Positions 15,525 through 34,188 of a stretch of DNA of 64,000 nucleotides are shown here, in pieces. A program made the translations under genes and the position numbers. Numbering within the stretch: position 1 is the stretch's first letter; every line of letters begins with the position of its first letter. Below the pieces are notes generated by a model. The model searched no databases. It saw only the letters and a list, made by a program, of their open reading frames with translations, and was not told the origin of the DNA. Source of the DNA: an uncultured Candidatus Saccharibacteria bacterium (GTDB lineage Bacteria > Patescibacteriota > Minisyncoccia > UBA6257 > 02-FULL-45-10c). The DNA lies in NCBI GenBank assembly GCA_964355085.1, contig CAYHBW010000001.1, positions 4,693-68,692 on the forward strand, written 5' to 3'.

Positions 15525-17324
15525 TTATTTTTTCAGATGATAAGTCTTATGGAAATAGGAATTTGTATCTTTAATCAGATCGGCCGGATTACCTGACTCG
15601 ATTACCCGCCCACCCTCCAAAACGAATATGGTATCCGCGTCCAAAACAGTGGACAGACGGTGCGCTATGATTATTATGGTCATCTTGCCACGCAGTCCGC
15701 TAATCGATTTTTGAATCAAAAGCTCGGACTCATTATCCAGAGCGCTCGTCGCCTCATCCAATATGAGAATCGAAGGATTCCTCGCCAAAATTCTTGCCAA
15801 AATTATTCTCTGTCTCTGCCCGCCTGAAAGCATTACGCCCCTATCCCCCACAACCGTCTTCATGCCATCCTTCTGCCTTTCTATGAATTCAGATGCGTTC
15901 GCGAGTTTTGCGGCATTCTCTATATCTTCGTCGGAAATATTCTCGCCATAAAAACGGATGTTGTTTTCTATCGTATCATTCACAAGAAAAACTTCCTGGG
16001 ATACGTATCCGATGTTCTTCCGCCAATCTTGCAAAGCGATATCGTTTATGTCGACTCCATCAACCAGAATCTCGCCTTTTCCAGGATTCAAAAATTTCAA
16101 AAGAAGGTCCGCGATCGAGGACTTTCCAGCTCCGGACGGACCGATCAATCCCACGACCTGTCCTTTTTTGATTTTGATATCCACCCCAGCCAAAACACGG
16201 CTTCCTTCATCGTAGGAAAAATCGATATTTTTAAGATGAAGTGAATCTTGGAATTCAAAGGGCGATGATCCGCCTGGATTCTCCTGGTTATTTTCCAATT
16301 CCGATCTGAAGGACAGGATATTTTTCAGGAATGGAATCTGTTCGTTCACTGAATGGAATGCGGCCTGCGATCCCTCAAGATAGGTGAAAATTTTCTGGAT
16401 GAAATATACCGTCACAATAAATGCAGGCAAATTGAAATTCGGCGATTTGTATTGGTAATAAAAAAGGACGGAGATGAATATCATGGCCATTGGCTGCATA
16501 AAATTGGACAATAGAGAACGGAAAACCACGATTTTCATGTGCAGATTCTTCATGCGGTTATACAATCCCCCCCCTTTTTCCGTAGCGGCATTCTCGACGG
16601 TCAGAGATTTTATATATTTCGCCCCGGAAATATTTTCAATCAAATAACCGGAAATCAGCTTTTCCACGGCGATCATTTTTTCAAAGATATCGCGGTTCTT
16701 CCTGATAAAAGGGAATAGCAAGAGGACGCCCGCTCCTCCGACGAGCAGGGTCAATAGCGTCACCTCGGGAGAAATATTGATTGCAAAAAATAAATAGATC
16801 AGCAGTCCGGTGCCTGAAATTATAAATCGGCTCAAATAGACGATTGAATCCGAAGTGGTCTGCATATCCCGCAAAATGGTGGCTTGGACATATCCGAGCT
16901 TCTGCTTCAATAAAAACGTCCATTTGGCTCCGAAAACCAACTTAAGCAGATCCTTGACCGACTGATTCTTGTAGTCGATCATCGTCAAATAAGAGATATA
17001 GGAAAAAATAACAAAAATGAAGGCGCGGAGGAAAAATAAGCAGATGGCCAGACCGAGAAGAAAAATGAGGTCGTGTTCGAAAGGAAGATAATCCACATAT
17101 TTCAAAATCGTCCTTGAAATGAAATCTTCGGCTGGCATCGCATTTTTAGTGAAAAAAGAAAATACCGGGATAAGGACATTTATTCCGATACTATCGAGAA
17201 GCCCGCCTAAAAATCCCAGAAATGCGAGAAAAACTAGCTTCCCCCTGAAACCACGGAATGATTCGTTCAAAATCCGGAAAACTTCTGAAAGTTTCAAAAA
17301 ATTCTTGATGAATTGCATGTTCAA
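15525..17324 (-). CDS. ABC exporter, fused permease plus ATPase (MsbA/type-I exporter family)
   Basis: 599 aa: six N-terminal TM helices then an NBD with Walker A GPSGAGKSS, signature LSGGQRQRIILARIL and Walker B ILILDEATSALD. Confidence 0.85.
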   Translation of the reverse strand: MNMQFIKNFLKLSEVFRILNESFRGFRGKLVFLAFLGFLGGLLDSIGINVLIPVFSFFTKNAMPAEDFISRTILKYVDYLPFEHDLIFLLGLAICLFFLRAFIFVIFSYISYLTMIDYKNQSVKDLLKLVFGAKWTFLLKQKLGYVQATILRDMQTTSDSIVYLSRFIISGTGLLIYLFFAINISPEVTLLTLLVGGAGVLLLFPFIRKNRDIFEKMIAVEKLISGYLIENISGAKYIKSLTVENAATEKGGGLYNRMKNLHMKIVVFRSLLSNFMQPMAMIFISVLFYYQYKSPNFNLPAFIVTVYFIQKIFTYLEGSQAAFHSVNEQIPFLKNILSFRSELENNQENPGGSSPFEFQDSLHLKNIDFSYDEGSRVLAGVDIKIKKGQVVGLIGPSGAGKSSIADLLLKFLNPGKGEILVDGVDINDIALQDWRKNIGYVSQEVFLVNDTIENNIRFYGENISDEDIENAAKLANASEFIERQKDGMKTVVGDRGVMLSGGQRQRIILARILARNPSILILDEATSALDNESELLIQKSISGLRGKMTIIIIAHRLSTVLDADTIFVLEGGRVIESGNPADLIKDTNSYFHKTYHLKK

Positions 17325-18418
17325 TTTTTTTCGGATTTCATATGATTTTCAACGTATTTTTCAGTCAGATGATCTCTTCTCTTTTTCATATATTCCGCAT
17401 CATAAAATTTCTCCCCCCTGAAAAGGGGCTTTATCCTGCCGCCGAATCCGGATTTGAAAAATGAAATGCTTATCTCTTTGGGCGTCCTGACCTCGTCGGA
17501 AATGATCGGATAAAAATTACAGCCAAGCTCATACTGCCTGAAATTATTAGACTTGAGATACTTGATTATCCCCCATTGCAAAAAATGACTGATTCCATTC
17601 ATTTCCTTGAAATCGGCTGCGGTGGCTCCGAACGCATAATATGCAGATTGCTTATAGACGAAGAAAATCACTCCGCTGGCGAATTTTCCGGAGCTGTCTT
17701 TTTCGAGCGCCAAAACAGCGGCGCCGGCCTTGATAAGTCCGTATGTCGCATCCCAGCGTTCCCTGGTTCCGACTTCTTTCCCCGCCGCGGAAAAATAAAT
17801 ATCTTTATAGATCTTGAATATCCGATCGCTGATATTATTCTTATCGAAAAAATCGATGGACAGACCCGTTTTACCTGCCGATCGTATATCATACTGATAC
17901 CCGTCGCGAATATTTTTGAAAAGTTGCTCTTCCGGCAATGACAGATCAACAATATTGGTTGTCAACGAAACATCGCCGAATCCGGATTTTAATAATTGAT
18001 TGAATTTACCAGGACCATATTCGGAGTCATCGGCCAACGGATCGGAAAAAAATTTCGCATACATGACGGATTTTTCCCTGGCAAGAGCATCTATCCTTTC
18101 AAAGGCCGACTTCAACAATTTTGCGGACTTTGACTCGGACAGATCGCTCCGCAATGCCGGGAATGGCACCGGGTCTCCGCCCATCGCAAATTCAAAAATA
18201 TCGCCCTCTCCGGAAATAGGTTGCTTGATCAGCGGGACAGCCGCCGCCAGCTTCCCGGCTTCAATTATTCCAAAAGAAAGATTCTCGCTTGCATTATTTA
18301 AGCTCAAGCAAAAACGCATCGCATCACTTGAGTGCCTGAACCAAGCCGAACTGGAGTTCAAGCAAAAATCATCCCACTGCTTAAGATCTAATTTTCCAAA
18401 CGGAACAAAATCAGCCAT
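17321..18418 (-). CDS. hypothetical protein, possibly a FemAB/Acetyltransf_6-like GNAT-fold acyl/aminoacyl transferase
   Basis: 365 aa with no strong motif. Size, predicted mixed alpha/beta fold and the polysaccharide-locus context suggest a FemAB-family (BioF2-like) enzyme. Weak assignment. Confidence 0.3.
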   Translation of the reverse strand: MADFVPFGKLDLKQWDDFCLNSSSAWFRHSSDAMRFCLSLNNASENLSFGIIEAGKLAAAVPLIKQPISGEGDIFEFAMGGDPVPFPALRSDLSESKSAKLLKSAFERIDALAREKSVMYAKFFSDPLADDSEYGPGKFNQLLKSGFGDVSLTTNIVDLSLPEEQLFKNIRDGYQYDIRSAGKTGLSIDFFDKNNISDRIFKIYKDIYFSAAGKEVGTRERWDATYGLIKAGAAVLALEKDSSGKFASGVIFFVYKQSAYYAFGATAADFKEMNGISHFLQWGIIKYLKSNNFRQYELGCNFYPIISDEVRTPKEISISFFKSGFGGRIKPLFRGEKFYDAEYMKKRRDHLTEKYVENHMKSEKN

Positions 18419-19110
18419 TATTTTTTCTTTTTAAGCAAAATGGCTTCAACTGCCTCGAAATCTTCCGGATAGTCAACATCAATGTTCTCATCTTTTTCCA
18501 TTACCAGGACATCTGCCTTGTCAGCGCCCATTTGTCTTTTAAGAGTCGTGATTTTCGTAAGGCAGATTGCCCCGTTCTCTTTCACGAGCGGCTCCTGAAA
18601 CTGGCTGTTTCTTTCAGTCGTTGGATAAAATCTCACCCAACCGCCGATCGCTTCTTTCCAGTAATGGCCTTTGTCGTAAATACCGCTGAAAACAGTGTCG
18701 GAATCCCGATCAAGCGCGAGATCGATCGCCTGTTCAATCCTCTCCGCTTTCAAAAGCGGAGAAGTCGTATAAACGAGTAGCACATAATCCGGAACATATC
18801 CCTGTTTTTCCAGCTCTCCGAGGGCGTGCTTAACCACCGCATAAGTCGTCACTTCGTCTGATGTCAAATCAGCCGGTCTTTTAAATGGGACATCGGCGCC
18901 GTATTTTCTGGCGATCTTCGCAACCTTGTCGGATTCCGTAGAAACCACGATCCGATCCAAACGCCCCACTCCTTTCAGCGTCTCCAAAATGTAAGCCATC
19001 ATCGGCTTGCCGGCCAGATCCCGGGTGTTTTTATTCGGAACCCGCTTGGAATGTTCCTTTATCGGAACAAGGGCTAATATCTTTTTTCCCGGTTTTTTAT
19101 TATTTTTCAT
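18418..19110 (-). CDS. acylneuraminate / nonulosonate cytidylyltransferase (CMP-sugar synthetase, CTP_transf_3 family; NeuA/PseF/LegF-like)
   Basis: The N-terminus ILALVPIKEHSKRVPNKNTRDLAGKPMMAYILETL matches the cytidylyltransferase P-loop-like motif (IPAR.GSKG.P.KN...L.GKPLI.Y). 230 aa. Confidence 0.7.
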   Translation of the reverse strand: MKNNKKPGKKILALVPIKEHSKRVPNKNTRDLAGKPMMAYILETLKGVGRLDRIVVSTESDKVAKIARKYGADVPFKRPADLTSDEVTTYAVVKHALGELEKQGYVPDYVLLVYTTSPLLKAERIEQAIDLALDRDSDTVFSGIYDKGHYWKEAIGGWVRFYPTTERNSQFQEPLVKENGAICLTKITTLKRQMGADKADVLVMEKDENIDVDYPEDFEAVEAILLKKKK

Positions 19111-20122
19111 ATTTATATTTTTTAATCATATCGATGATATTTCCAGTGGCATGAGGCACTGTCATATCGAAGGATTTCCTTGATTCTGGAAATATTCCGC
19201 TGGAATATTTTTTAAATAGGTCCCGAAGCTCGCTTTCCCCGGTTGCCAGCTGACCGAGACCGAATTCTCCAACCACTGAAAAGTCTTTTGATTTCAAATT
19301 CGGCTGATAGCTTATCACCCGCTTCCCGGCGATAGCCGCCTGGAAAAGCACCACGGAAGTCATCCCTATGACGAGACCGGCTCTTGAAAGCAATTCCTCG
19401 ATTGAGGTCTCATCATCCACTCGAATTCCGGAATCAACATACCTGTCAAATTTTTCAGATTTTTCACTTGGATGCGGTCTAATTATAACCTTGAAATCAG
19501 AGGGAAAGTTACCCGACTTAAGCACTCTTAAAATTCCTTCAATTACCGTAAATTCGTCGTATCCGGATTTTTCTTTTACGCTTACCGGCGTAGATATGAA
19601 CAAGATCAGGGTAGGGTCGCCTTTCTTGATTTTGCGGAAGTGATCGAAGTGCGGATTGCCGGTAATTTTTATGATTTTCGGATCAAATCCCTCCGCCACC
19701 ATCTCTTTTTTCGCCTTTTGATCCATGACGCAGATCATATCCGGCAGATACCGGAAATCCTTCTTTTCGGAAGAAAATCTTTGCCAATAATTCGCCCAAT
19801 AATCTAAAATATAGATAGTTTTTGCCCCATTTTTTTTAAGAGTATCCAATATTTTTTTATCAAAAGTAAGGCCGGCGCTTGTTCCGCCTATGAAGAAATC
19901 CGGGTTGAAATCATAAATCAGATCCTTCAGATCACGAAATGATAACAAGTCCGCATTTATGAATTTTATTTTCTTTTTTTTGAAAATCTCCTTGGACGGG
20001 CCTCCGATCAGTAATAACGCGGAAAATTTCTTATCCCTGGAAACCCTCTCCGCAACCGGAAAAACGGCGTTTCCGCCGCCAATATCAAAAGCGCTGAACA
20101 ATATTTTTTTCTTGTCCGTCAT
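19100..20122 (-). CDS. GT-B-fold protein, possibly PseG-like UDP-sugar hydrolase or TagF-like transferase
   Basis: 340 aa. N-terminal Rossmann-like ILFSAFDIGGGN and C-terminal RPHP...VIGMTSVVLFQAAIAGKRVISY resemble MurG/PseG/TagF C-domains. The position next to the CMP-sugar synthetase and an aminotransferase fits PseG. Confidence 0.35.
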   Translation of the reverse strand: MTDKKKILFSAFDIGGGNAVFPVAERVSRDKKFSALLLIGGPSKEIFKKKKIKFINADLLSFRDLKDLIYDFNPDFFIGGTSAGLTFDKKILDTLKKNGAKTIYILDYWANYWQRFSSEKKDFRYLPDMICVMDQKAKKEMVAEGFDPKIIKITGNPHFDHFRKIKKGDPTLILFISTPVSVKEKSGYDEFTVIEGILRVLKSGNFPSDFKVIIRPHPSEKSEKFDRYVDSGIRVDDETSIEELLSRAGLVIGMTSVVLFQAAIAGKRVISYQPNLKSKDFSVVGEFGLGQLATGESELRDLFKKYSSGIFPESRKSFDMTVPHATGNIIDMIKKYKYEK

Positions 20123-20126: not shown

Positions 20127-21407
20127 TTATTTTACCAGCTCCGCCTTATTCGCCAAAACCTTCCTGACGGCTGTCACGAACAGATCAATTTCCTTTTTCG
20201 TCCTGGGATATTGGCAGACGGAATTCACCGTGACTTCTTTTTCGTACATCCGCTCGACGACCGGACAAATCCCCTTGGAATAATCGGCCTTCCCGGAATA
20301 ATGGCTTCCCTCAAACGGAAATTTAGTGTTATTGAACGCCTTTTTATCCTGAAATACCTTCAATAAATAGATTGGCTTCACATAACCGGCTGACATTCCG
20401 AATCCTTCCGCTGCCATGGCTTTCACGAACATATCCCTGGAAATTCCCAGCTTCTTCTCGTTTATCTTTATCGGATGGCCGTAATAGACGTGAAAATAAT
20501 CTTTTCCGACATAGGGCAATTCCAAGCCGTCTATGCCGGAAAGTTTTTTGTTGAGATGCTTTACTAATTCAATTCTTTTCCTGTTTAAAAAATCGAGTTT
20601 TTTCAATTGTCCATAAGCTATCGCCGCCTCGATTTCCGTCATACGATAATTGCTTCCGATTATCGGTCCGAGAGAATAATCCGGATCCTGATCCGCATAA
20701 ACCTCGCCATGATTCCTGCACATCTGCGCCCGTAATGCGTAATCCGGATTATTGGTAACCAAAACACCTCCTTCTCCGGATTGAATCACTTTATGGACGT
20801 TAAAGCTGAATATGCCGATATCGCCGATGGTTCCGGCAAATCTCCCCTTATATTTCGCGCCCGGTCCCTGGGCGTTATCTTCTATGATTTTTAAATCGTG
20901 TTCTTTGGCGATTTTCAATAACTCATCGAAATCCGAAGGGCCGCCGAAAATATTCACCGCCATTATCGCCTTGGTCCGCGGAGTCACGCATTTTCTTACG
21001 GAAACAGGGTCGATGCAGAAAGTTTTTTCATCTATGTCAGCAAAAACCGGAACTGCGCCGTTCATCAGAATCGCAGTCGCAGAAGCCGCCATCGTATAAG
21101 GAGATACGATGACCTCATCGCCTGGCCCTATGCCTAAAGCCACGATCGAAGCATGCAGAGCGGTGGTGGCGGAATTGAAAGAAACCGCGTATTTAACTCC
21201 GAATTTTTTACAGAATGACAATTCCAATCTCTTGACGTGCCTGCCTCCCAAAAAATACTTACCTTTGACACCGACAAAGTCCGAAAGCGGGCCTTTTTTC
21301 AGAAGCTTATTTACTGCGGAAATTTCTTCCTTCCCTATGTTATAAACCGGGGGCAGAGGATTTTTCAAAACCGGCTTCCCGCCGTTTATGGCCAGTATTT
21401 TTTTCAT
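20127..21407 (-). CDS. DegT/DnrJ/EryC1/StrS-family PLP-dependent sugar aminotransferase
   Basis: 426 aa. Contains GDEVIVSPYTMAASATAIL and FSFNVHKVIQSGEGGVLV, with a lysine in the expected PLP-binding position. Confidence 0.8.
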   Translation of the reverse strand: MKKILAINGGKPVLKNPLPPVYNIGKEEISAVNKLLKKGPLSDFVGVKGKYFLGGRHVKRLELSFCKKFGVKYAVSFNSATTALHASIVALGIGPGDEVIVSPYTMAASATAILMNGAVPVFADIDEKTFCIDPVSVRKCVTPRTKAIMAVNIFGGPSDFDELLKIAKEHDLKIIEDNAQGPGAKYKGRFAGTIGDIGIFSFNVHKVIQSGEGGVLVTNNPDYALRAQMCRNHGEVYADQDPDYSLGPIIGSNYRMTEIEAAIAYGQLKKLDFLNRKRIELVKHLNKKLSGIDGLELPYVGKDYFHVYYGHPIKINEKKLGISRDMFVKAMAAEGFGMSAGYVKPIYLLKVFQDKKAFNNTKFPFEGSHYSGKADYSKGICPVVERMYEKEVTVNSVCQYPRTKKEIDLFVTAVRKVLANKAELVK

Positions 21408-23754: not shown

Positions 23755-23761
23755 TGATAAA

Positions 23762-27079: not shown

Positions 27080-27092
27080 GCTTTTCTTAAAT

Positions 27093-27836
27093 TTATTCCA
27101 ACCACTTGAAATCAGGGTCCGTATTCCATATATACACGCGCTCATTCCCAGCCAGCATCCACAGATAATACAACTCATGGCCGGGCGGATTGGCAACCGG
27201 ATGATATCCGCTCGGAATGAAAACACAATCCTTATCTTTGACGGCATAACATTGATCCGTCTTGCGGTCAGCTGAATATATCCGCTGGATGCCGAATCCC
27301 TTTTCCGGCCTGATTCTGAAAAAATAAATCTCCTCCAAAGGGACTTCCTTGCCGGGAACATATTCATCGTGCTTATGTGGCGGGAAAGATGACCAATTCC
27401 CCGGCAGATTGATTGTTTCGCCGACAGCTATCCGTTGCGTTTTTGTTTCAATATTCAGGATGTTGGAAACCTTCCTTTTATATCCCTCTTTTCCGCGCCA
27501 TTCTTCCTTCACATCAGCCGCCGGCACAAAAACCGGAACATTGTCCTCGTCCGCCCTGGCTTTGCAGACCGCCACCATGGTCGGAAGCGAAGCAGTAATG
27601 GAAACCGGACATTTCGGCGGAATATAAACAGCTGACGGAGGAGAGTCGAATACATTTTTTCGTTTCATTTCCACGGTTCCGATCCCGGACGCATCCAGGG
27701 AACAGCCGCCTTCTATGATCACAAAAACCGCCTCAAATTCATCGGAGATCCATGTCTTCTTTCCGCCGGCTTCCAGCTCCAGAAGTTCGAAGTCCAGAAT
27801 CGCCATCCGATTTTTTGTAAGCTCGTTTATTTTCAT
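27093..27836 (-). CDS. cupin-fold sugar isomerase, KduI/IolB-like (5-deoxy-glucuronate isomerase family)
   Basis: 247 aa. Double-cupin-like with a HKHDE...YYLWM block. Family assignment is tentative. Confidence 0.4.
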   Translation of the reverse strand: MKINELTKNRMAILDFELLELEAGGKKTWISDEFEAVFVIIEGGCSLDASGIGTVEMKRKNVFDSPPSAVYIPPKCPVSITASLPTMVAVCKARADEDNVPVFVPAADVKEEWRGKEGYKRKVSNILNIETKTQRIAVGETINLPGNWSSFPPHKHDEYVPGKEVPLEEIYFFRIRPEKGFGIQRIYSADRKTDQCYAVKDKDCVFIPSGYHPVANPPGHELYYLWMLAGNERVYIWNTDPDFKWLE

Positions 27837-27851: not shown

Positions 27852-28679
27852 TTATGCGGATTTTTTCGCCCAAACGACTATGCTATCGCCAATTCCAGTT
27901 TTTTTAGCCAAAAAATCAAGCGCTGACTTTATTCTCGGAGAAATGCCGCCGCTGGTATTTCCGCTTCCGAATCTCACCCAGCTGACAACATGAAAACCGG
28001 AACGCCTCAAGGCGTAAAATAATGATTTCCGACTGAAAAGATAGATATGTTGAGGCGGATTATAGTGCCGCCATTTCGGACCGAAATAGTCGGATATGAA
28101 TCCGCGACATGGAGTTTCAATTACCAAATTGCCGTCTTTTTCAAGCAGCTGATTGACTTTTTTAAGCGCGGCGGCGGGATTGGTGAAATGTTCCAACACA
28201 TCCCATAAGGTTATCATGTTGAATTTACCTTCCAATGAAAATAAATCCTCCGAGCTGGCGTCCAGCCCTTTTTCCCTGGCTCGCGCGACCATTTCAGCGG
28301 ACACATCAACGCCCTTGGCGCTGATTCCGCGGCTTTTCAGATATTCCAAAAAAATTCCCGTGGCACAGCCGATATCCAATGCCTTTTTAATCCCGGCTGG
28401 ACTGAACCCGAGATCAGAAAAATCAAGGTCAAAGGTGTTGAAGCAATCTTCTTTTGACTCCTCCCTGGTTTTGATGTAAATTCCGCCTTCGGACTCGTAT
28501 TTTCCATAAAAATCCCGCAAAAAATCCTGGCTGGGAACCGGATTCAAAATGCTCGTTCCGCATCCGGAACATACGGCATATTCATAGCCGTTTTTTCCGA
28601 TATCGAATCTGAATTTGCGCGAACCGCAAATCCCGCACCCGGCGGTAAAATCTGATGTATTCTTTTTAAATCTGAACAT
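27852..28679 (-). CDS. class I SAM-dependent methyltransferase with N-terminal C4 zinc ribbon
   Basis: CGICGSRKF...CSGCG zinc ribbon, then LDIGCATGIFLEYLKSRG (motif I) and ITLWDVLEH (motif II-like). Confidence 0.75.
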   Translation of the reverse strand: MFRFKKNTSDFTAGCGICGSRKFRFDIGKNGYEYAVCSGCGTSILNPVPSQDFLRDFYGKYESEGGIYIKTREESKEDCFNTFDLDFSDLGFSPAGIKKALDIGCATGIFLEYLKSRGISAKGVDVSAEMVARAREKGLDASSEDLFSLEGKFNMITLWDVLEHFTNPAAALKKVNQLLEKDGNLVIETPCRGFISDYFGPKWRHYNPPQHIYLFSRKSLFYALRRSGFHVVSWVRFGSGNTSGGISPRIKSALDFLAKKTGIGDSIVVWAKKSA

Positions 28680-28690: not shown

Positions 28691-29890
28691 CTAAAGATAA
28701 TCGCGTTTTACGAGATTTTCATATGCGTCAGCCAAAGATTCCTCCCGGCTGAAGCCCAATCCGGCTTTGGGAAACTTCCTGCCGATGCAATTCTTGGCGT
28801 TCTTTTTTATTGAAGTCAATATGGAGGCAAAAAGATTTGGGTTGCCATACGCGAAATATCTGTTCCATGCCTCAATCGTCAATGACTCTCCCAGCGCCAT
28901 ACTGATCATCCCGCCGACAAAATCTCCAGATCGCGCCGGCGTAGTATGGGAACTGTCCCAGCCGCCGGACAAACGAGGCGTGAGTTCCAAGATATACGGA
29001 CCGGTTTCAGTGAGCATGACATCCGCCTTCAGAATATGCCCTCCTTTTTGTTTATGCATGCCAATCGCTTTTCCTGAACGGTAGATCATTTCAGCCACTT
29101 CTTTTTTCAAACCGACGTCATGGATCGCCGGATTGATATGGCCTATCTCCACTCCCCAGCCGATTCCATGATACAGTTTCTTGCCGATTGCCCTCATATT
29201 TTTGAACTTTCCGAGATCTTTCCGGAATAAACGGTCGACCCAATTAAGCCAGTACATTTTCCCGTCATACCAAAGCGTCTCGACTGATTGTTCCGCTATT
29301 TCGCCATCAACCGGAATCAGGAGTTGTTCAACGATCGCCTGTCCAGTAGTTCCGTTCGCGAGAGCTTCTTCCAGCAATTCTTCCGTCGCCTCGCTTAACT
29401 TACTGATTGCGGCAAATCCCCGGCTTCCGGAATTATTGGTCGCCTTCAAAGCGACCGGCAATCCAATTTCCCTGATAGCCCGCTTCAATTCTTCAAGCGT
29501 CCGGACTGTCCGGAATTCCGGCTGTGGGATACCGGCGCGCGACAGGACTTTGCGGGTTTCCATCTTATACCGGCAGATTTTGGAAATCTTCGGATCAATG
29601 CCGGGCAAACCGAGACGCTTCGCCACGACAGCAACGGTTTCGTGGCAATCAACCGCAATACCCAGGACGCCTTTTATGTCATACTTTTTATTCAGCGCAT
29701 CAGCTGCCTTAAGATTTCCAGGAATATCAAAAGTATTCAAAGGCACGAATTCATCCGCGATGGCGGCGCAAACACACTCCGGATCCATATCGGTGATTAT
29801 CAACCTGAAACCGCGGATTTTTATTTTTTCAGCTGCGAGTTTCTGCATCGGTCCGCCGCCGAAAAGCCACATCGCTTTTTTCTTTTTCAT
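28691..29890 (-). CDS. ATP-grasp domain ligase
   Basis: 399 aa with a pre-ATP-grasp Rossmann-like N-terminus and a central ATP-grasp core (LPVALKATNNSGSRGF ... E..L.P). Stand-alone carboxylate-amine ligase-like. Confidence 0.65.
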   Translation of the reverse strand: MKKKKAMWLFGGGPMQKLAAEKIKIRGFRLIITDMDPECVCAAIADEFVPLNTFDIPGNLKAADALNKKYDIKGVLGIAVDCHETVAVVAKRLGLPGIDPKISKICRYKMETRKVLSRAGIPQPEFRTVRTLEELKRAIREIGLPVALKATNNSGSRGFAAISKLSEATEELLEEALANGTTGQAIVEQLLIPVDGEIAEQSVETLWYDGKMYWLNWVDRLFRKDLGKFKNMRAIGKKLYHGIGWGVEIGHINPAIHDVGLKKEVAEMIYRSGKAIGMHKQKGGHILKADVMLTETGPYILELTPRLSGGWDSSHTTPARSGDFVGGMISMALGESLTIEAWNRYFAYGNPNLFASILTSIKKNAKNCIGRKFPKAGLGFSREESLADAYENLVKRDYL

Positions 29891-29898: not shown

Positions 29899-30795
29899 TT
29901 ATTTATTTTTTTTCGCGATAATGATAAATTCCCTGCCGATTCCCTTTCCGCCGAAAGACCGGTAAATTCCGTTAAGAAGTTCGGGGTCGCCATTATACAT
30001 ATTAAGTTCAAAATCTTTCCTCCGCAACTGGCATTGTCGGCCGACTTCCGGATTGCCGACATAGTTCAAGCCGGAAAAAAGGAAAAATTCCATAGGAAAA
30101 TTTCCGAGCAGATCCACGACTTCCAGACCGAGCCGTTCAAGCAGCTTGCTCACGGAAGCGGAATCGAAATAATTGAGGTGCTGGGGAGGCGAAACCCACC
30201 AAGGATCAAAATTCATTTTTTCCCTCAAAATATTCTGAAGCGGGTTATAATCATTCGGAGAAATGATGCAGATCAATCCACCTGGAGCAAGAGCGTCTTT
30301 TGCCTCCAGTAAGAGTTTTTCCGGATCCGGAAGATGTTCAATGACCGTTTTCATATAAATCGCATCGAATTTCCCGTATTTTCCCGCGGCTTTGGCGGAA
30401 AAGAAATCATTGACCACTTCCACGCCCAATTTCCGCGAATATTCCGAGGCATCCTTGGACGGTTCAAAGCCGAGCACATCCCATCCGAGATCCTTGCCGC
30501 ATTTCAAAAAATATCCCGGCCCTGAACCGATATCCAGCAATTTCCTACCGTCGGTATGCTTTGCAAGAAGACTGAAGTGATTGCGGTAAGTCGCCATCCA
30601 CCATTCCAGATCTTCTTCATAATCGGAAAAATATTTCGGCTTCACATGCGAATAAAACTCCTTGCCATAAAAATCTTCCAGCTCTTTGTCGGAAGGAATC
30701 GGGGTTACATGCCGGAATCCGCAAGATTCGCATTCAATGACTTCATAACCGTTTTTTCTGTCCAAAATCTTTCCTTTGTGAGATTTATCATTCAT
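29899..30795 (-). CDS. class I SAM-dependent methyltransferase with N-terminal zinc ribbon
   Basis: CESCGF...TP ribbon, LLDIGSGPGYFLKCGKDLG motif I and IYMKTVIEHLPDP. Confidence 0.75.
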   Translation of the reverse strand: MNDKSHKGKILDRKNGYEVIECESCGFRHVTPIPSDKELEDFYGKEFYSHVKPKYFSDYEEDLEWWMATYRNHFSLLAKHTDGRKLLDIGSGPGYFLKCGKDLGWDVLGFEPSKDASEYSRKLGVEVVNDFFSAKAAGKYGKFDAIYMKTVIEHLPDPEKLLLEAKDALAPGGLICIISPNDYNPLQNILREKMNFDPWWVSPPQHLNYFDSASVSKLLERLGLEVVDLLGNFPMEFFLFSGLNYVGNPEVGRQCQLRRKDFELNMYNGDPELLNGIYRSFGGKGIGREFIIIAKKNK

Positions 30796-30865: not shown

Positions 30866-30894
30866 AAAACACCTTGACCGGATCAAAGTGTTTT
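30866..30894 (-). promoter_or_regulatory. intra-operon hairpin downstream of the neuB-family gene (possible attenuator or partial terminator)
   Basis: aaaacaccttga ccgga tcaaagtgtttt is a 12-bp stem with one C.A mismatch. It lies in the only sizeable gap (110 nt) of the long minus-strand operon. Confidence 0.3.
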
Positions 30895-30905
30895 GAAAAC
30901 TATAT

Positions 30906-32042
30906 TTACTCTCCCATGAGATCTTCCCAAACAATCGGGCTTCTGGCCTTAATCTTGTTTTTGACTTTTTTCCCGATAATCAATTCCGCATGACCAGTAT
31001 CAATACCGCCGGACGGCCGCAGCGAAATCAGCATATCTTCCGTCAACACGGCGCCCTTTGAAATATCCCTTGAGGCATATAGCGACCGCCTGACCCAGCG
31101 ATCAAAAATTTCGTCTCCTTCATGACCAGGATAGGAAACCGGCTGTTTGATCCCGGAACCGGACAACGCCTCTTCCGTCATCCGAATTTCTGCGACCATA
31201 CGCTTGAAATCCGCCGGCTCCGTTGAATTCGGATCATCGTGGCTTCCGCCGGCCTGCGAATCGGTAAAATGCTTTTCAATCGCGACAGCACCCAAAGCAA
31301 CGGCTGCCAACGGAGCCGCAAGATGCGGCGGCTTGGAATGATCCGAATAACCGACCGGCAGATGGAATGCATTGCGGAGAGTTTCGATTGCGCGCAGGTT
31401 CAAGTCAGAAAAACTGCGCGGTGGATACATGGATACGCAATGGAGCAAAACAATATCGTCATTGCCTTCCTGCTGTATAACCCGGACCGCATGCGCGACT
31501 TCTTCCAAATAAGCCATGCCGGTGGAAAGAATGATGGGCTTCCCCTGCTTTGCGATATACCGAAGCAATAAGTCATCGGTCATTTCATATGAAGCGATCT
31601 TAAAAGCCGGAACTTTCGATTTCATCAGGACATCCACCGCCTCTTTGTCAAAAGGAGTAGAAAGGAACATGATGCCCTTCTTTTTCGCATATTCAACCAA
31701 TCGTCCCGTCCATTCGTAAGGCAGTTCGGATGACCCGTAAAATTCGGAAAGAGTTTTCCAGCTTTTCTTTCCATTCCAGGAAATATCTATAGGGGTATCA
31801 GCGGCGATTTTATCGTGCTTGAGATGCTGGAATTTCACAGCGTCTGCGCCGGATTCCGCCGCAATATCAATAAACCGGAGCGCGTTTTTCAGATCGCCTT
31901 TATGATTCGCGCCGACTTCAGCGATGATAAAAACCGGCTGGCCTGCGCCGATTGTTTTATTCCCTATCCTTACCGAATTTACCGGCTGATATGTTAGATT
32001 TTCAGGCAATTTTTTGAAATAACCGTCTCTTTCTTTCCCCAT
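30906..32042 (-). CDS. neuB: N-acetylneuraminate-synthase-family nonulosonic acid synthase (NeuB/PseI/LegI) with C-terminal SAF domain
   Basis: IGNKTIGAGQPVFIIAEVGANHKGDLKNALRFIDIAAESGADAVKFQ is the canonical NeuB N-terminus. A C-terminal antifreeze-like/SAF domain is present. Confidence 0.85.
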   Translation of the reverse strand: MGKERDGYFKKLPENLTYQPVNSVRIGNKTIGAGQPVFIIAEVGANHKGDLKNALRFIDIAAESGADAVKFQHLKHDKIAADTPIDISWNGKKSWKTLSEFYGSSELPYEWTGRLVEYAKKKGIMFLSTPFDKEAVDVLMKSKVPAFKIASYEMTDDLLLRYIAKQGKPIILSTGMAYLEEVAHAVRVIQQEGNDDIVLLHCVSMYPPRSFSDLNLRAIETLRNAFHLPVGYSDHSKPPHLAAPLAAVALGAVAIEKHFTDSQAGGSHDDPNSTEPADFKRMVAEIRMTEEALSGSGIKQPVSYPGHEGDEIFDRWVRRSLYASRDISKGAVLTEDMLISLRPSGGIDTGHAELIIGKKVKNKIKARSPIVWEDLMGE

Positions 32043-32055
32043 AATTTAAATTTAT

Positions 32056-33192
32056 TTAACTGATCAAAATATTTTTAATTTCCTTTATGACGGTTTCCTG
32101 GTCCGATCCGCTCAACCCGGGATAGATAGGAATTGAAATCTCTGAAAGATAGAAATCTTCGGCGACCGGACAGATTCCTTTTTTATATCCCAGCTCCTGA
32201 TAATACGGATGCCAGTAGACGGGAATATAGTGAACTTGGACGCCTACTCCGGCTTTTTGTAATTTTTCAAAAACTTCACGGCGGCGCGACTGTAACTTCC
32301 CTGAAAGCCTGATCGGGTAAAGATGGCGGCTGGACTTCCTTCCTTCAAAATCCGCCGGCAAGACCAGATCCGGAAATCCGGAAAGTTCCTCGGAATAACG
32401 CTTTGCTAATTCATTTCTTGATTTTATGAATGTCGGAAGTTTCTTGAGCTGACTTATTCCGAGAGCCGCCTGCATGTCAGTCATCCGATAATTCAATCCA
32501 AGCTCCTGCATCTCGTGATACCACGGACCATGCGGATCGTTCTTAAAATCATTGGCGTCCTTTGTTATTCCGTGACTCCGGAATAACAGCAATTTTTTAT
32601 AAAAATTTTCGTTGTCAGTGAGAATCGCGCCGCCTTCGCCGGTGGTTATCGATTTCACCGGGTGGAAGCTAAAAGTCGTCATATCAGCGATGCTTCCGAC
32701 TTTCTTTCCGCCATATTCGGCACCGAGCGAATGTGCGGCGTCCTCGATCAGAATCAGATTATGTTTTTTTGCAATTGATTTTAAAATATCCAAATCACAT
32801 GGCAAGCCGGAATAATCGACAGCTACGATGGCTTTTGTCTTGCCAGTTATCTTTTCCTCGATCAAATGAGCGTCGATATTGCCCGTAGACCTCTCAACAT
32901 CGACGAAAACAGGCGTCGCCCCCTGCCAAATAGCCGCATTTGAAGTCGCAGCGAATGTGATCGGTGAAGTGATGATCTCATCTCCAGGACCGATTCCGGC
33001 GGCAAAATAGGCGGCCTGCAAAGCGGCTGTGCCGTTTGAAATGACGACGGCATATTTCGCTCCGCAATAATCAGCCAGCGCAGATTCGAATTCTTTTATT
33101 TTCGGGCCTTGGGTCATCCAATCAGACTCCAAAACCTCACGGACTGACCTCAAATCCTCCCCGTCAATTGATTGATGCGAATAAGGGATCAT
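32056..33192 (-). CDS. DegT-family aminotransferase, PseC/LegC-like (UDP-4-keto-6-deoxy-hexosamine transaminase)
   Basis: The MIPYSHQSIDGEDLRSVREVLESDWMTQGPKIKEFE...AVVISNGTAALQAA N-terminus is typical of PseC-type enzymes. The track ORF also shows FSFHPVKSITTGEGGAIL. Confidence 0.8.
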   Translation of the reverse strand: MIPYSHQSIDGEDLRSVREVLESDWMTQGPKIKEFESALADYCGAKYAVVISNGTAALQAAYFAAGIGPGDEIITSPITFAATSNAAIWQGATPVFVDVERSTGNIDAHLIEEKITGKTKAIVAVDYSGLPCDLDILKSIAKKHNLILIEDAAHSLGAEYGGKKVGSIADMTTFSFHPVKSITTGEGGAILTDNENFYKKLLLFRSHGITKDANDFKNDPHGPWYHEMQELGLNYRMTDMQAALGISQLKKLPTFIKSRNELAKRYSEELSGFPDLVLPADFEGRKSSRHLYPIRLSGKLQSRRREVFEKLQKAGVGVQVHYIPVYWHPYYQELGYKKGICPVAEDFYLSEISIPIYPGLSGSDQETVIKEIKNILIS

Positions 33193-33207
33193 CGTTTATT
33201 CCGGCCT

Positions 33208-34188
33208 TCAGCCGAGGATTTCTTTGGCTTTCCGCGGATTATTCAGAAAATCCCGGTGATTGCTGGCGTATTGGAATTGCTTTTTGACTGACGGCTTTTT
33301 ATTCAGCCAGCGCACGCTTCCGGATTCAGGATGGATGGCGAAAGCGCTCCCGATATCCTTGGCCCGGCGCGCTTCATGCTCGGTTATCAGCACTTCATGT
33401 AATTTTTCTCCCGGACGGATTCCGATGACTTCGACATCGCATTCCGGAGCCAGATATTTTATGACATCCGTAACTTTCAGGCTTTTCATCTTCGGCACGA
33501 AAAGCTCTCCGCCCTCCATGACGCCGACGGCGTCCAGAATTATATCCAGAACTTTATCTATGGAAATCCAGAAACGGGTCATCTCCTTGTCCGTCAACTT
33601 GATCACGCCTGTTTTTTTCTGATTATGAATAAGTTCGATCAGACTTCCGCGGCTTCCGATGACATTTCCATAACGCACGACGCTGAACTTGGTGCGTAAA
33701 TTATTTCCGACATATACATTGCCGGAAATAAACAATCTTTCCGCCGCAAGCTTGGTGGCGCCGTAAAGGTTTATCGGTTGAACCGCTTTGTCGGAAGAAA
33801 TAAGCATCACCTTGTCTATGTTCTTGTTCAAAGCCGCCTCAACGACATTCTGACTCCCTAAAATGTTCGTTTTGACAGCTTCCATCGGATTGAATTCAAT
33901 CGCCGGAACCTGCTTCAACGCCGCCGCATGGACGACGATATCCACTCCATCAAACGCCCTCTCCAAACGGGGCAAATCCCGGACATCGCCGATGAAAAAC
34001 CTCAATCGATCCTTATGATCGGCCAGATCTCTTTGCATTTCATACTGCTTGAATTCATCCCGGCTGAAAATTATGATTTTTTTGACCGCGCTTTCGCTTA
34101 AAAGTTTGGCAACAAAAGCCCGGCCGAAAGTCCCGGTGCCGCCGGTGACCAGAACCGTCTTGCCCTTGAGATAATTTAAGTTCGACAT
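33208..34188 (-). CDS. pseB: UDP-N-acetylglucosamine 4,6-dehydratase (inverting), PseB/FlaA1 family
   Basis: Aligns by eye nearly end-to-end with H. pylori FlaA1/PseB. Shared blocks: TVLVTGGTGTFG, KKIIIFSRDEFKQYEM, RFFIGDVRD, HAAALKQVP, KTNILGSQNV, INLYGATKL, FSVVRYGNVIGSRGS, MTRFWI, GGELFVPK, IGIRPGEKLHEV. Confidence 0.9.
   Translation of the reverse strand: MSNLNYLKGKTVLVTGGTGTFGRAFVAKLLSESAVKKIIIFSRDEFKQYEMQRDLADHKDRLRFFIGDVRDLPRLERAFDGVDIVVHAAALKQVPAIEFNPMEAVKTNILGSQNVVEAALNKNIDKVMLISSDKAVQPINLYGATKLAAERLFISGNVYVGNNLRTKFSVVRYGNVIGSRGSLIELIHNQKKTGVIKLTDKEMTRFWISIDKVLDIILDAVGVMEGGELFVPKMKSLKVTDVIKYLAPECDVEVIGIRPGEKLHEVLITEHEARRAKDIGSAFAIHPESGSVRWLNKKPSVKKQFQYASNHRDFLNNPRKAKEILG

What the first reader, a model, noticed from the sequence alone, without database searches (positions are those of the whole stretch)
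17321..34188. Pseudaminic/legionaminic-type nonulosonic acid pathway with ATP-grasp ligase and two zinc-ribbon methyltransferases: a candidate novel modified sialic-acid-like sugar
PseB/FlaA1 (near full-length similarity), a PseC-like aminotransferase and a NeuB-family synthase are contiguous. A CMP-sugar synthetase, a second DegT aminotransferase, a PseG-like GT-B protein and GNAT-fold candidates lie downstream. That is the full complement for a CMP-5,7-diamino-nonulosonate. Interleaved are an ATP-grasp carboxylate-amine ligase, two SAM methyltransferases with N-terminal C4 zinc ribbons, an SDR, a cupin isomerase and a Gfo/Idh/MocA oxidoreductase. In characterised systems, extra enzymes in Pse/Leg loci generate N-acyl variants such as amidino, hydroxybutyryl, alanyl or N-methyl. 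The ATP-grasp plus methyltransferase combination here would predict an aminoacylated and/or methylated nonulosonate not yet described. It is unusual for a putatively reduced-genome bacterium to invest in this.
Basis: partly seen in the sequence, partly recalled or inferred. Interest (0 to 1): 0.7.

Follow-up and report, generated by a model that had tools for sequence, protein, structure and literature searches.

The report
Tailored pseudaminic-acid sugar operon
This is a real 18-gene operon, probably from an ultra-small groundwater bacterium, that makes a sialic-acid-like surface sugar and decorates it with a conserved but uncharacterised enzyme set; that set recurs in many phyla, so the operon is one example of an unstudied, widespread sugar-tailoring module rather than a one-off.

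Summary
Window 34188→13271 (minus strand) is one tightly packed operon.

**Core pathway.** PseB and PseC score above NCBIfam equivalog cut-offs. There is also a PseI/SpsE-like synthase and a NeuA-like cytidylyltransferase. No PseH acetyltransferase and no orthologous PseG were found.

**Tailoring genes.** These are a methyltransferase, an ATP-grasp ligase, a second methyltransferase, an IolB/KduI-type isomerase, an SDR, a GH57-like protein with both catalytic residues, DUF218, Gfo/Idh/MocA, a second DegT, two GT-B paralogues and a FemAB-like protein. An ABC exporter and a Wzy_C-TPR protein follow.

**The cassette is not unique.** ATP-grasp + KduI-like + SDR (+ methyltransferase, ± GH57-like) sits beside PseB/PseC/NeuB in at least 33 species genomes. 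These include Geobacter, Burkholderiales, Bacteroidia, Nitrospirota and five candidate-phyla-radiation (CPR) lineages. It lies next to Maf or FlmG-like flagellin glycosyltransferases in flagellated hosts. It also occurs on a phage-like contig.

**Best reading (inferred).** The ATP-grasp replaces PseH and N-acylates the future N7 with a small O-methylated hydroxy-acid made by the isomerase and reductase. This resembles the Treponema denticola flagellin glycan and the Shewanella Sfm system. No gene-level link to either was shown.

**Verdict.** New variant of a known kind, moderately interesting.

The parts
33208..34188 (-). PseB, UDP-GlcNAc 4,6-dehydratase (inverting); first gene of the operon
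   Evidence: TIGR03589 409.5 bits, above the 407.75 cut-off; PF02719 E = 4e-92. LegB model scores only 62.5 bits against a 475 cut-off.
32056..33192 (-). PseC, UDP-4-keto-6-deoxy-AltNAc aminotransferase
   Evidence: TIGR03588 502.7 bits, above 423.5, covering the full length; DegT E = 2e-126.
30906..32042 (-). Nonulosonate synthase (PseI/SpsE-like, NeuB family with SAF domain)
   Evidence: PF03102 269 bits. PseI model 313.6 bits (cut-off 340) and NeuB model 305 bits (cut-off 400). Best solved relatives are PseI 8h2c at 213.8 bits, SpsE at 211 bits and NmNeuB at 159 bits.
30866..30894 (-). 13-bp-stem hairpin followed by a U-tract, in the only long intergenic gap (110 bp) of the operon
   Evidence: Possible internal attenuator; function not tested. 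The whole-gap z-score is only -1.3.
29899..30795 (-). MT1, a SAM methyltransferase that lies immediately upstream of the ATP-grasp in nearly all related loci; N-terminal knuckle with one CxxC plus His
   Evidence: PF13489 89.8 bits. Orthologues share 40-57% identity in 22 of 28 or more loci. N-terminal motif analysis.
28691..29890 (-). ATP-grasp carboxylate-amine ligase, the hallmark of the cassette
   Evidence: Weak GARS_A and ATP-grasp Pfam hits. 418 homologues, 53-77% identical across phyla. AF2 model pLDDT 90; nearest structures are L-amino-acid ligases BL00235 and BacD, then PurD, PurK and PurT. Invariant K149, E188, D290, E302 and the TPRLSGGWD motif.
27852..28679 (-). MT2, a SAM methyltransferase with an N-terminal C4 zinc ribbon; present in only some related loci and absent from the closest relative L039
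   Evidence: PF13489 102 bits. CGIC...CSGC motif. Absent in L039.
27093..27836 (-). IolB/KduI-family cupin aldose-ketose isomerase
   Evidence: PF04962 242.8 bits; TIGR04378 227.8 bits, above 205. Same family as the roughly 190-aa KduI-like gene that follows the ATP-grasp in 25 of 30 or more loci (hhalign E = 3e-74).
26384..27079 (-). Short-chain dehydrogenase/reductase; true start is MKKHKK, not the upstream ATG at 27367
   Evidence: adh_short_C2 115.7 bits. Start inferred from the Rossmann motif and the 13-bp gap. Orthologues present in 27-30 of 30 loci. One of the two Geobacter copies is KduD-like at 205 bits.
24397..26397 (-). GH57-like protein (about 660 aa) with both GH57 catalytic residues conserved
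   Evidence: PF03065 53.6 bits. A profile of the family hits 4-alpha-glucanotransferase 1k1w at E = 2e-11; E124 aligns with the nucleophile Glu123 and D224 with the acid/base Asp214, and both are invariant in 21 sequences. Present in 22 related loci; 9 CPR loci have an unrelated 257-aa protein at that position instead.
23762..24400 (-). DUF218 (YdcF/SanA-like) protein
   Evidence: PF02698 63.7 bits. Found only in loci that lack a PseG-like gene, and vice versa. Role inferred, not tested.
22753..23754 (-). Gfo/Idh/MocA NAD(P) oxidoreductase; the ORF extends to 23787 but the start is probably the internal ATG
   Evidence: PF01408 73 bits. Weak hits to the IolG (81 bits) and UDP-GlcNAc 3-dehydrogenase (67 bits) models.
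21404..22750 (-). GT-B paralogue of the 340-aa protein, with an HP motif; not present in the closest relative
   Evidence: No Pfam or NCBIfam hit. hhalign against the 340-aa family gives probability 97%, E = 6e-11. Absent in L039.
20127..21407 (-). Second DegT-family sugar aminotransferase
   Evidence: PF01041 308.5 bits. PseC model scores only 218.8 bits against a 423.5 cut-off.
19100..20122 (-). GT-B protein: candidate nucleotide-sugar hydrolase (PseG/LegG role) or CMP-nonulosonate transferase
18418..19110 (-). CMP-nonulosonate synthetase (NeuA/PseF-like)
   Evidence: PF02348 75 bits. PseF model 123.9 bits (cut-off 205.7). Best solved relatives are NeuA enzymes.
17321..18418 (-). FemAB-like double-GNAT acyl/aminoacyl transferase
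   Evidence: PF02388 25.8 bits; TIGR04421 72 bits against a 250 cut-off. The orthologue in L039 hits Acetyltransf_6.
15525..17324 (-). ABC exporter (MsbA/PglK/HepA-like half transporter)
   Evidence: PF00005 and PF00664; HepA family 330 bits, PglK 213 bits. Conserved downstream of the cassette in 10 CPR loci.
13271..15499 (-). Wzy_C (O-antigen ligase / O-oligosaccharyltransferase-type) membrane protein with a C-terminal TPR domain
   Evidence: PF04932 75.7 bits plus TPR families. Conserved next to the ABC exporter in 10 CPR loci.

Best explanation
The region is an 18-gene operon that makes a CMP-activated pseudaminic-acid-type nonulosonate with a non-acetyl group on N7, then exports it as part of a surface glycan.

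**Shown by homology**
- PseB and PseC convert UDP-GlcNAc to UDP-4-amino-4,6-dideoxy-beta-L-AltNAc.
- A PseI-like synthase condenses the freed sugar with PEP.
- A NeuA-like enzyme activates the product with CMP.

**Inferred**
- There is no PseH. The C4 amine, which becomes N7, is instead acylated by the conserved ATP-grasp ligase through an acyl-phosphate.
- The acyl donor is a small hydroxy-acid, most likely a deoxy-hexonate. The IolB/KduI-type isomerase makes it by turning an aldehydo-uronate into a keto-acid, and the SDR reduces the keto group.
- MT1, with or without MT2, O-methylates it.
- The GH57-like protein probably liberates the free sugar precursor.
- One of the two GT-B paralogues (or DUF218) does the PseG-type nucleotide release. 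The other transfers the CMP-sugar.
- Gfo, DegT2 and the FemAB-like protein add a lineage-specific extra amino or acyl decoration.
- The ABC exporter and the Wzy_C-TPR protein flip the lipid-linked glycan and ligate it to a surface acceptor.
For: 1. PseB and PseC score above equivalog cut-offs. The synthase and cytidylyltransferase are closest to PseI/SpsE and NeuA.
2. No PseH or other small GNAT or hexapeptide acetyltransferase appears in the operon or anywhere else in the 64-kb window.
3. Complete 'type A' loci (L004, L017, L018, L022, L026) contain PseB, PseC, a PseG-like gene (TIGR03590, 105 bits), NeuB and a cytidylyltransferase, but no acetyltransferase. PseH is therefore the one missing step, and the ligase is the one added amide-forming enzyme.
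4. The ATP-grasp is followed directly, often overlapping, by a KduI-like cupin and 1-2 SDRs. The counts are at least 25/30 for the cupin and 27-30/30 for the SDR. This also holds in divergent clades (L042), a phage-like contig (L043), an IMG/VR contig (L044) and a stand-alone five-gene module (L040).
5. The window isomerase passes the IolB equivalog cut-off. One Geobacter SDR is KduD- or gluconate-5-dehydrogenase-like. In L026 and L027 an aldose 1-epimerase follows the GH57-like gene.
6. The ligase fold matches amide-forming ATP-grasp enzymes, including PurD and PurT, which acylate sugar-borne amines.
7. Chemical precedent exists. The T. denticola flagellin glycan is mono-acetylated Pse with an N7 2-methoxy-4,5,6-trihydroxy-hexanoyl group; its 450.2 Da mass fits 316.13 - 42.01 + 176.07 (own arithmetic). 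The S. oneidensis sfmABCDE cluster encodes a TPP enzyme, an SDR, a methyltransferase and an ATP-grasp, and gives a 274-Da nonulosonate plus a nitrogen-free C9H16O7 unit with 0-2 methyl groups.
8. Maf, FlmG-like or FlgN genes flank the cassette in flagellated hosts.
Against: - No enzyme here has been assayed, and the acyl donor is inferred only from neighbours.
- The source of an aldehydo-uronate in a reduced-genome bacterium is unexplained.
- The GH57-like gene is dispensable: it is absent from L042, L043 and 9 CPR loci.
- The window has a FemAB-like GNAT that could be the N7 acyltransferase instead.
- The nearest structural relatives of the ligase are L-amino-acid ligases.
- Neither Treponema nor Shewanella turned up in the genome scan or in two protein searches. 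The link to the two known glycans is therefore chemical analogy only, and the T. denticola gene cluster could not be inspected.
- SDR plus cytidylyltransferase-AKR pairs are known to 8-epimerise Pse (EpaA/EpaB). Some reductases in related loci may therefore act on the nonulosonate itself.
Confidence: 0.42

Rival explanations
1. The ATP-grasp is an L-amino-acid-ligase-type enzyme that attaches an amino acid to N5 or N7, and the methyltransferases N- or O-methylate it. The product would be an aminoacyl, methylated nonulosonate comparable to Clostridium botulinum Leg5GluNMe7Ac.
For: - The closest sequence and structure relatives are L-amino-acid ligases BL00235, BacD/YwfE and RizA.
- A methyltransferase is always adjacent.
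- N-methyl-glutamyl legionaminic acid is a known precedent.
- Many related loci carry a class-III aminotransferase, which could turn a keto-acid into a non-proteinogenic amino acid.
Against: - It does not explain the near-obligate KduI-like isomerase and sugar-acid-type SDRs next to the ligase.
- PurD, PurK and PurT are almost equally close structurally.
- The window itself lacks the class-III aminotransferase.
Confidence: 0.2
2. N7 is acylated conventionally by the FemAB-like GNAT or by an acetyltransferase encoded elsewhere. The ATP-grasp acylates a third amino group, installed on the nonulosonate or its precursor by an oxidoreductase/aminotransferase pair. That pair is Gfo + DegT2 here and AKR/SDR + class-III aminotransferase in other loci.
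For: - Almost every locus has an oxidoreductase + aminotransferase + cytidylyltransferase trio.
- EpaA (CTP_transf_3-AKR) with EpaB (SDR) act on C8 of Pse, so oxidation at C8 followed by transamination is chemically plausible.
- A FemAB-like protein is present in the window and in L039.
Against: - The stand-alone module L040 and the viral contig L044 keep ligase + isomerase + SDR without the trio.
- Type A loci have no GNAT at all.
- No such triamino-nonulosonate came up in the literature searches.
Confidence: 0.18
3. The ATP-grasp/isomerase/SDR/GH57 module is not a nonulosonate-tailoring unit. It makes a separate small molecule or a different glycan constituent that happens to be co-located in surface-glycan islands. 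Alternatively, the ligase amidates the C1 carboxylate of the nonulosonate.
For: - The five-gene module lies beside housekeeping genes, with no Pse genes within 10 kb, in L040.
- The window is a glycan island of more than 50 kb with many unrelated transferases.
Against: - By ORF clustering, 17 of 20 loci with 9 kb or more of upstream flank have NeuB, and 17 of 20 have PseB; with the tblastn hits added, NeuB is absent only from L011.
- The ligase gene is usually sandwiched between NeuB, PseG or the methyltransferase and the rest of the pathway.
- The association survives in phage-like and very divergent versions.
Confidence: 0.1

Closest known systems
Canonical CMP-pseudaminic acid pathway, PseB-PseC-PseH-PseG-PseI-PseF (Campylobacter/Helicobacter)
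   Same: PseB and PseC are equivalog-level matches. The locus also has a PseI-like synthase and a CMP-synthetase. The starting point is UDP-GlcNAc.
   Different: There is no PseH and no orthologous PseG. The synthase and cytidylyltransferase score below the equivalog cut-offs. About ten extra tailoring genes are interleaved.
Treponema denticola FlaB glycan: Pse with N7 2-methoxy-4,5,6-trihydroxy-hexanoyl (Kurniyati et al. 2017; cited in PMC13439194 and PMC9481697)
   Same: It has a Pse configuration, one acetyl group, and a long O-methylated deoxy-hexonoyl amide on N7. An isomerase, reductase, methyltransferase and amide ligase acting in place of PseH would be expected to give exactly this kind of product.
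   Different: No Treponema homologue of the ligase was found, and the T. denticola gene cluster could not be read. The target here is probably not flagellin, because the source looks like a non-flagellated CPR bacterium.
Shewanella oneidensis MR-1 sfmABCDE flagellin modification genes (PMC3765264)
   Same: The enzyme classes match: an SDR, a SAM methyltransferase and an ATP-grasp ligase, plus a TPP enzyme that also lies divergently next to PseB in the window. The product is a mono-acetylated nonulosonate with a nitrogen-free polyhydroxy unit carrying 0-2 methyl groups.
   Different: SfmE is an ATP-grasp_4-type protein and was not recovered as a relative. Sfm has no KduI-like gene. The TPP gene in the window is an insertion absent from the closest relative.
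EpaA/EpaB and AciE-type 8-epimerisation of Pse/Leg (PMC12053666)
   Same: The cytidylyltransferase + aldo-keto reductase + SDR combination recurs in most related loci.
   Different: The window lacks the AKR and the SpsF-like cytidylyltransferase. Its single SDR is paired with the isomerase and the ligase.
Other N-acyl tailoring systems of nonulosonates: PseA/PtmG acetamidino, PtmH N-methyl, C. botulinum Leg5GluNMe7Ac, T. forsythia Pse5Am7Gra
   Same: The logic is the same: extra enzymes inside Pse/Leg loci diversify the N-acyl groups.
   Different: None of these systems uses an ATP-grasp + KduI-like + SDR trio. No paper in the searched library describes such a trio.

Membership tests
Pseudaminic acid biosynthesis pathway | PseB: inverting UDP-GlcNAc 4,6-dehydratase/5-epimerase | tested here: met
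   TIGR03589 409.5 bits against a 407.75 cut-off.
Pseudaminic acid biosynthesis pathway | PseC: C4 aminotransferase | tested here: met
   TIGR03588 502.7 bits against a 423.5 cut-off, full length.
Pseudaminic acid biosynthesis pathway | PseH: GNAT N-acetyltransferase for the C4 amine | tested here: not met
   No operon or window protein hits a PseH model or any small GNAT. The only acyltransferase is a 365-aa FemAB-like protein.
Pseudaminic acid biosynthesis pathway | PseG: UDP-sugar hydrolase (GT-B) | tested here: inconclusive
Pseudaminic acid biosynthesis pathway | PseI: PEP-condensing synthase specific for 6-deoxy-AltdiNAc | tested here: inconclusive
   PseI model 313.6 bits, below the 340.25 cut-off; NeuB model 305 bits, below 399.65. 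The best solved relative is PseI 8h2c. Substrate specificity cannot be tested here.
Pseudaminic acid biosynthesis pathway | PseF: CMP-Pse synthetase | tested here: inconclusive
   PseF model 123.9 bits, below the 205.7 cut-off. The closest solved proteins are NeuA CMP-sialate synthetases.
Legionaminic acid pathway | LegB/LegC equivalogs and a GDP-sugar route | tested here: not met
   LegB model 62.5 bits against 475; LegC model 250 bits against 420.
ATP-grasp carboxylate-amine ligases | Three-domain ATP-grasp fold with the conserved Lys and acidic Mg/ATP ligands | tested here: met
   AF2 model pLDDT 90. Foldseek E values of 1e-21 to 1e-17 to BL00235, BacD, PurD, PurK and PurT. Invariant K109, K149, E188, D290 and E302.
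L-amino-acid ligases (BacD/RizA type) | Both substrates are free amino acids | not testable with these tools
   There is only 16-17% identity to solved L-amino-acid ligases. Context argues for a sugar-borne amine and a sugar-acid donor.
Glycoside hydrolase family 57 | Catalytic nucleophile Glu and acid/base Asp in the (beta/alpha)7 barrel | tested here: met
   E124 and D224 align with Glu123 and Asp214 of 1k1w and are invariant in 21 family members. Activity on alpha-glucans was not tested and is unlikely from the context.
IolB (5-deoxy-glucuronate isomerase) of myo-inositol catabolism | Equivalog-level HMM match plus an iolCDEG context | tested here: inconclusive
   The HMM score is 227.8 bits against a 205 cut-off. 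No iolC/E/J genes are present. The neighbouring TPP enzyme did not rank with IolD and is not conserved. The family is cassette-specific.

The most novel reading that the evidence does not exclude
The ATP-grasp + KduI-like isomerase + SDR (+ methyltransferase) set may be a previously unrecognised, horizontally mobile 'PseH-replacement' module. It would synthesise a methylated deoxy-hexonic acid and ligate it to the N7 amine of pseudaminic acid. That would give the T. denticola-type extended-acyl nonulosonate in Geobacter, Burkholderiales, Bacteroidia, Nitrospirota, many CPR lineages and some phages. It would be the first enzymology for this class of sugar. It would also imply that CPR bacteria display such sugars through an ABC exporter and a Wzy_C-TPR ligase.
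Probability: 0.3. Interest if true: 0.65.

Novelty: new variant of a known kind. Interest (0 to 1): 0.5.

Why it matters
Nonulosonic acids decorate flagella, pili, S-layers and capsules, and their N-acyl groups influence immune recognition and possibly phage recognition. Two structurally solved or partly solved 'extended-acyl' nonulosonates, from T. denticola and S. oneidensis, have no biochemically characterised enzymes for the acyl extension. This window belongs to a conserved, cross-phylum cassette that is a concrete, testable candidate for that chemistry. Cultured carriers exist in which it can be tested: Geobacter pelophilus and Aquabacterium sp. CECT 9606. The analysis also shows that candidate-phyla-radiation bacteria repeatedly keep a long nonulosonate operon coupled to an ABC exporter and an O-antigen-ligase-like TPR protein. 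That points to a surface-glycosylation route in organisms whose envelopes are almost unstudied.

Tried and rejected
1. **T. denticola gene cluster.** I tried to read the T. denticola glycosylation genes. Kurniyati 2017 (PMC5182079) is not held, and locus-tag and phrase searches gave nothing useful.
2. **Treponema or Shewanella orthologues of the ligase.** None appeared among 33 species-genome loci or in two protein searches. The motif scan is strict, because divergent members vary the TPRLSGGWD motif. Absence is therefore weak evidence.
3. **Inositol-pathway idea** (IolG-like Gfo + IolD-like TPP enzyme + IolB). The TPP enzyme is acetolactate-synthase-like, not IolD-ranked. It has no counterpart in any related locus. 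It is an insertion relative to L039.
4. **Mycosporine-like 'O-methyltransferase + ATP-grasp' analogy.** Considered and dropped. MT1 is Methyltransf_23, and there is no sugar-phosphate cyclase.
5. **U257 and DUF218 against GH57 and PseG by profile-profile comparison.** No homology was found.
6. **Promoter and terminator scan.** Counts were not above shuffles.
7. **Rfam scan.** No hits.
9. **Fold search of the ligase.** It confirmed the superfamily but cannot discriminate substrates.
10. **Viral collection.** The main-clade profile found nothing. The divergent profile found one contig.

Full report
**What is there.**
ORF listing and HMM scans show one co-directional minus-strand array from 34188 down to 13271.
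- In transcription order the genes are: PseB, PseC, a NeuB-family synthase, methyltransferase MT1, an ATP-grasp protein, methyltransferase MT2, an IolB/KduI cupin, an SDR, a 666-aa GH57-like protein, DUF218, a Gfo/Idh/MocA oxidoreductase, a 448-aa unknown, a second DegT aminotransferase, a 340-aa unknown, a CTP_transf_3 cytidylyltransferase, a FemAB-like double GNAT, an ABC exporter and a Wzy_C-TPR membrane protein.
- Gaps between genes run from -26 to +25 bp. The exception is a 110-bp gap between the synthase and MT1, which holds a 13-bp hairpin with a U-tract.
- The SDR ORF as listed (327 aa) overlaps the cupin gene. The Rossmann motif and the spacing put its real start at 27079. The Gfo gene probably starts at 23754.
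- The rest of the window is also glycan machinery: an initiating Bac_transf, Wzx, GT1, GT2, PMT_2, further methyltransferases, a deacetylase and Capsule_synth.
- Exact copies of the ligase gene occur in Hainich groundwater assemblies, including a 0.1-µm filter fraction.
- The nearest relatives of several genes are from CPR/Patescibacteria MAGs.

**Which nonulosonate.**
- PseB (409.5 bits against 407.75) and PseC (502.7 against 423.5) pass NCBIfam equivalog cut-offs. The LegB and LegC models fail by a wide margin.
- The synthase scores 313.6 bits on PseI and 305 on NeuB, both below cut-off. Its best solved relatives are pseudaminic acid synthase 8h2c and SpsE (about 212 bits), against 159 bits for Neu5Ac synthase.
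- The cytidylyltransferase is NeuA-like.
This is a Pse-type 5,7-diamino sugar pathway.

**What is missing.**
- No protein in the operon or elsewhere in the window resembles PseH, and none hits the PseG model.
- Its 56 homologues carry polysialyltransferase, Epimerase_2 or TagF-type Pfam hits and have an invariant His-Pro motif.
- The 448-aa protein is a distant paralogue of it (hhalign probability 97%) and is absent from the closest related locus.
- A GT-B candidate for the nucleotide-release step therefore exists. Whether it is the hydrolase or the CMP-sugar transferase is unresolved.

**The cassette is conserved, which is the main new result.**
- The ATP-grasp protein has 418 detectable homologues. 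These are 53-77% identical across Deltaproteobacteria, Geobacter, Planctomycetes and several CPR groups.
- In a library of 1.84 billion 50%-identity representatives, only about 13 representatives match full-length at more than 280 bits. The family is compact.
- A motif scan of 185,579 species genomes recovered 33 loci. This is a lower bound, because divergent members vary the motif.
- tblastn and ORF clustering show two archetypes.
  - Type A occurs in Geobacter, Burkholderiales, Sulfuritalea, Bacteroidia, Nitrospirota, Syntrophorhabdus and others. Its gene set is PseB, PseC, [AKR, SpsF-like cytidylyltransferase, class-III aminotransferase], NeuB, a PseG-like gene (TIGR03590, 105 bits), MT1, ATP-grasp, KduI-like, SDR, SDR, GH57-like.
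  - Type B occurs in Saccharibacteria, Paceibacterota and Nomurabacteria. It has the same core, with DUF218 in place of PseG-like and an unknown 257-aa protein in place of GH57-like. An ABC exporter and a Wzy_C-TPR protein follow.
- The window is a hybrid of the two. Its closest relative, L039, has 75-89% identical proteins and the same order. L039 lacks MT2 and the 448-aa gene, and it lacks the divergent TPP-enzyme/epimerase pair upstream of PseB.
- Among loci with enough flank, a KduI-like gene follows the ligase in at least 25 of 30. An SDR follows in 27-30 of 30. GH57-like or its replacement is present in 27 of 28. NeuB and PseB are each nearby in at least 17 of 20.
- The ligase-isomerase-SDR trio persists in four unusual settings:
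  - a very divergent clade (L042);
  - a phage-like contig with ribonucleotide reductase and many small ORFs (L043);
  - an IMG/VR viral contig (L044);
  - a stand-alone five-gene module beside thrS-infC-pheST (L040).
- In flagellated hosts the cassette abuts Maf/PseD-like, FlmG-like TPR-glycosyltransferase or FlgN genes.

**How it most likely works.**
- Type A loci have every Pse enzyme except PseH and contain no acetyltransferase. The simplest reading is that the ATP-grasp ligase takes over N-acylation of the C4 amine, which becomes N7 of the nonulosonate.
- The ligase has the ATP-grasp fold and conserved ATP/Mg residues. It resembles L-amino-acid ligases, PurD, PurK and PurT.
- Its constant partners suggest what the acyl donor is:
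  - an aldose-ketose isomerase of the KduI/IolB family, which in the window is above the IolB cut-off;
  - SDRs, one of which in Geobacter is KduD/gluconate-5-dehydrogenase-like;
  - often a GH57-like protein with intact catalytic Glu and Asp, followed in two Bacteroidia loci by an aldose 1-epimerase.
- From established KduI/KduD and IolB chemistry, such a set converts an aldehydo-uronate into a keto-deoxy-hexonate and then a deoxy-hexonate. I therefore infer that the donor is a small sugar acid and that MT1, always adjacent, O-methylates it.
- This would give a product of the same kind as the T. denticola flagellin glycan, which is mono-acetylated Pse with an N7 2-methoxy-4,5,6-trihydroxy-hexanoyl group. 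The mass fits: 316.13 - 42.01 + 176.07 = 450.18 (my own arithmetic).
- It also parallels the S. oneidensis Sfm system, in which an SDR, a methyltransferase, an ATP-grasp and a TPP enzyme add a nitrogen-free, variably methylated unit to a mono-acetylated nonulosonate.
- These are chemical analogies, not demonstrated homology. Neither organism appeared among relatives of the ligase, and the T. denticola cluster could not be read.
- The window-specific genes (Gfo, DegT2, FemAB-like) look like an oxidise-transaminate-acylate add-on. They may parallel the AKR / class-III aminotransferase / cytidylyltransferase trio of other loci, which in turn resembles the EpaA/EpaB 8-epimerisation enzymes.
- The ABC exporter (PglK/MsbA/HepA-like) and the Wzy_C-TPR protein are conserved after the cassette in ten CPR loci. 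This suggests export of a lipid-linked glycan and en-bloc ligation to a surface acceptor. This step is inferred only.

**Alternatives.**
This fits the nearest solved ligases and the precedent of Leg5GluNMe7Ac. It leaves the isomerase and reductases unexplained.
- The ligase might instead acylate a third amine installed by the oxidoreductase/aminotransferase pair.
- The module might be only loosely tied to the nonulosonate, as the stand-alone L040 hints.
- I rate the PseH-replacement/sugar-acid model at about 0.4 and these rivals at 0.2, 0.18 and 0.1.

- MT2 has a true C4 ribbon. MT1 has one CxxC plus conserved histidines in all orthologues.
- The 'GNAT-fold candidates' reduce to one FemAB-like protein.
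- 'Full complement' is an overstatement.
- 'Unusual for a reduced genome' is contradicted by the recurrence in five CPR lineages.
- No paper in the searchable library describes this ligase/isomerase/SDR cassette.

**Verdict.**
This is a real and correctly located Pse-type operon. The tailoring cassette is a new, widely distributed variant of nonulosonate N-acyl diversification whose chemistry has plausible precedents but no characterised enzymes. Interest is moderate. The locus is not unique, and the mechanism is inferred. It does, however, offer a specific, testable gene set for an orphan class of bacterial sugars, and it points to an ABC/Wzy_C-TPR display route in CPR bacteria.

Noticed in passing
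window 30866-30894 (- strand): A 13-bp perfect-stem hairpin followed by UUUUUAAUUUU lies in the only long intergenic gap of the operon, between the synthase and MT1. It could be an internal attenuator that separates the core pathway from the tailoring genes.
   Followed up: partly
window 34420-37180 (+ strand): A divergent pair sits upstream of PseB: an acetolactate-synthase-like TPP enzyme and an NDP-sugar epimerase/dehydratase. It is an insertion relative to the closest related locus L039, where a deacetylase, a 588-aa unknown, a GT1-methyltransferase fusion and a 254-aa unknown run straight into PseB. The Shewanella Sfm cluster also contains a TPP enzyme.
   Followed up: partly
L043 (Logan SRR31655977 contig, 50.6 kb) and L044 (IMGVR_UViG_3300046714_000131): A phage-like contig with ribonucleotide reductase and many small ORFs carries PseB, NeuB, a class-III aminotransferase, a methyltransferase, the ATP-grasp, a KduI-like gene, an SDR and a cytidylyltransferase. 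An IMG/VR viral contig carries IolB-like + SDR + ATP-grasp. Phages may therefore encode this modified-sugar pathway.
   Followed up: partly
L040 (= L011, Deltaproteobacteria MAG from the same Hainich site), 10001-15338: The five genes ATP-grasp, KduI-like, SDR, SDR and GH57-like form a stand-alone block next to thrS-infC-rpmI-rplT-pheST. No Pse genes lie within 10 kb upstream.
   Followed up: partly
related loci L004-L037: There are two complementary distributions. DUF218 and the PseG-like gene never co-occur. The GH57-like gene and an unknown 257-aa protein (no Pfam hit, no profile similarity) never co-occur and occupy the same position after the SDR. Both patterns suggest non-orthologous replacements.
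   Followed up: partly
window 13271-17324 (- strand) and 10 CPR loci: A PglK/MsbA-like ABC exporter and a Wzy_C protein with C-terminal TPR repeats always follow the cassette in CPR genomes. The pair looks like a flippase plus an O-oligosaccharyltransferase or ligase.
   Followed up: no
window 531-5273 (- strand): A 1580-aa protein with two Lamin Tail Domains, probably a giant surface protein typical of CPR genomes. Nearby are a PaaX-like regulator (5981-6544), a thioredoxin reductase-like gene (6663-7604) and a DsbA-like gene (7910-8608).
   Followed up: no
window 37991-39832 (- strand): A fusion of a GT4/GT1 glycosyltransferase with a C-terminal SAM methyltransferase (613 aa). It is conserved with the same neighbours in L039.
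   Followed up: no
L026 145-723 and 15214-16272 (Bacteroidia chromosome OZ257140.1): A UDP-glucose/GDP-mannose dehydrogenase fragment lies just upstream of the cassette. An aldose 1-epimerase lies directly after the GH57-like gene here, and a clustered 352-aa orthologue sits at the same position in L027. This hints that a free uronic or hexose sugar is an intermediate.
   Followed up: no
window 26384-27367 and 22753-23787 (- strand): The longest-ORF calls overextend two genes. The SDR ORF overlaps the cupin gene by 275 bp unless it starts at 27079. The Gfo ORF overlaps DUF218 by 26 bp unless it starts at 23754.
   Followed up: yes
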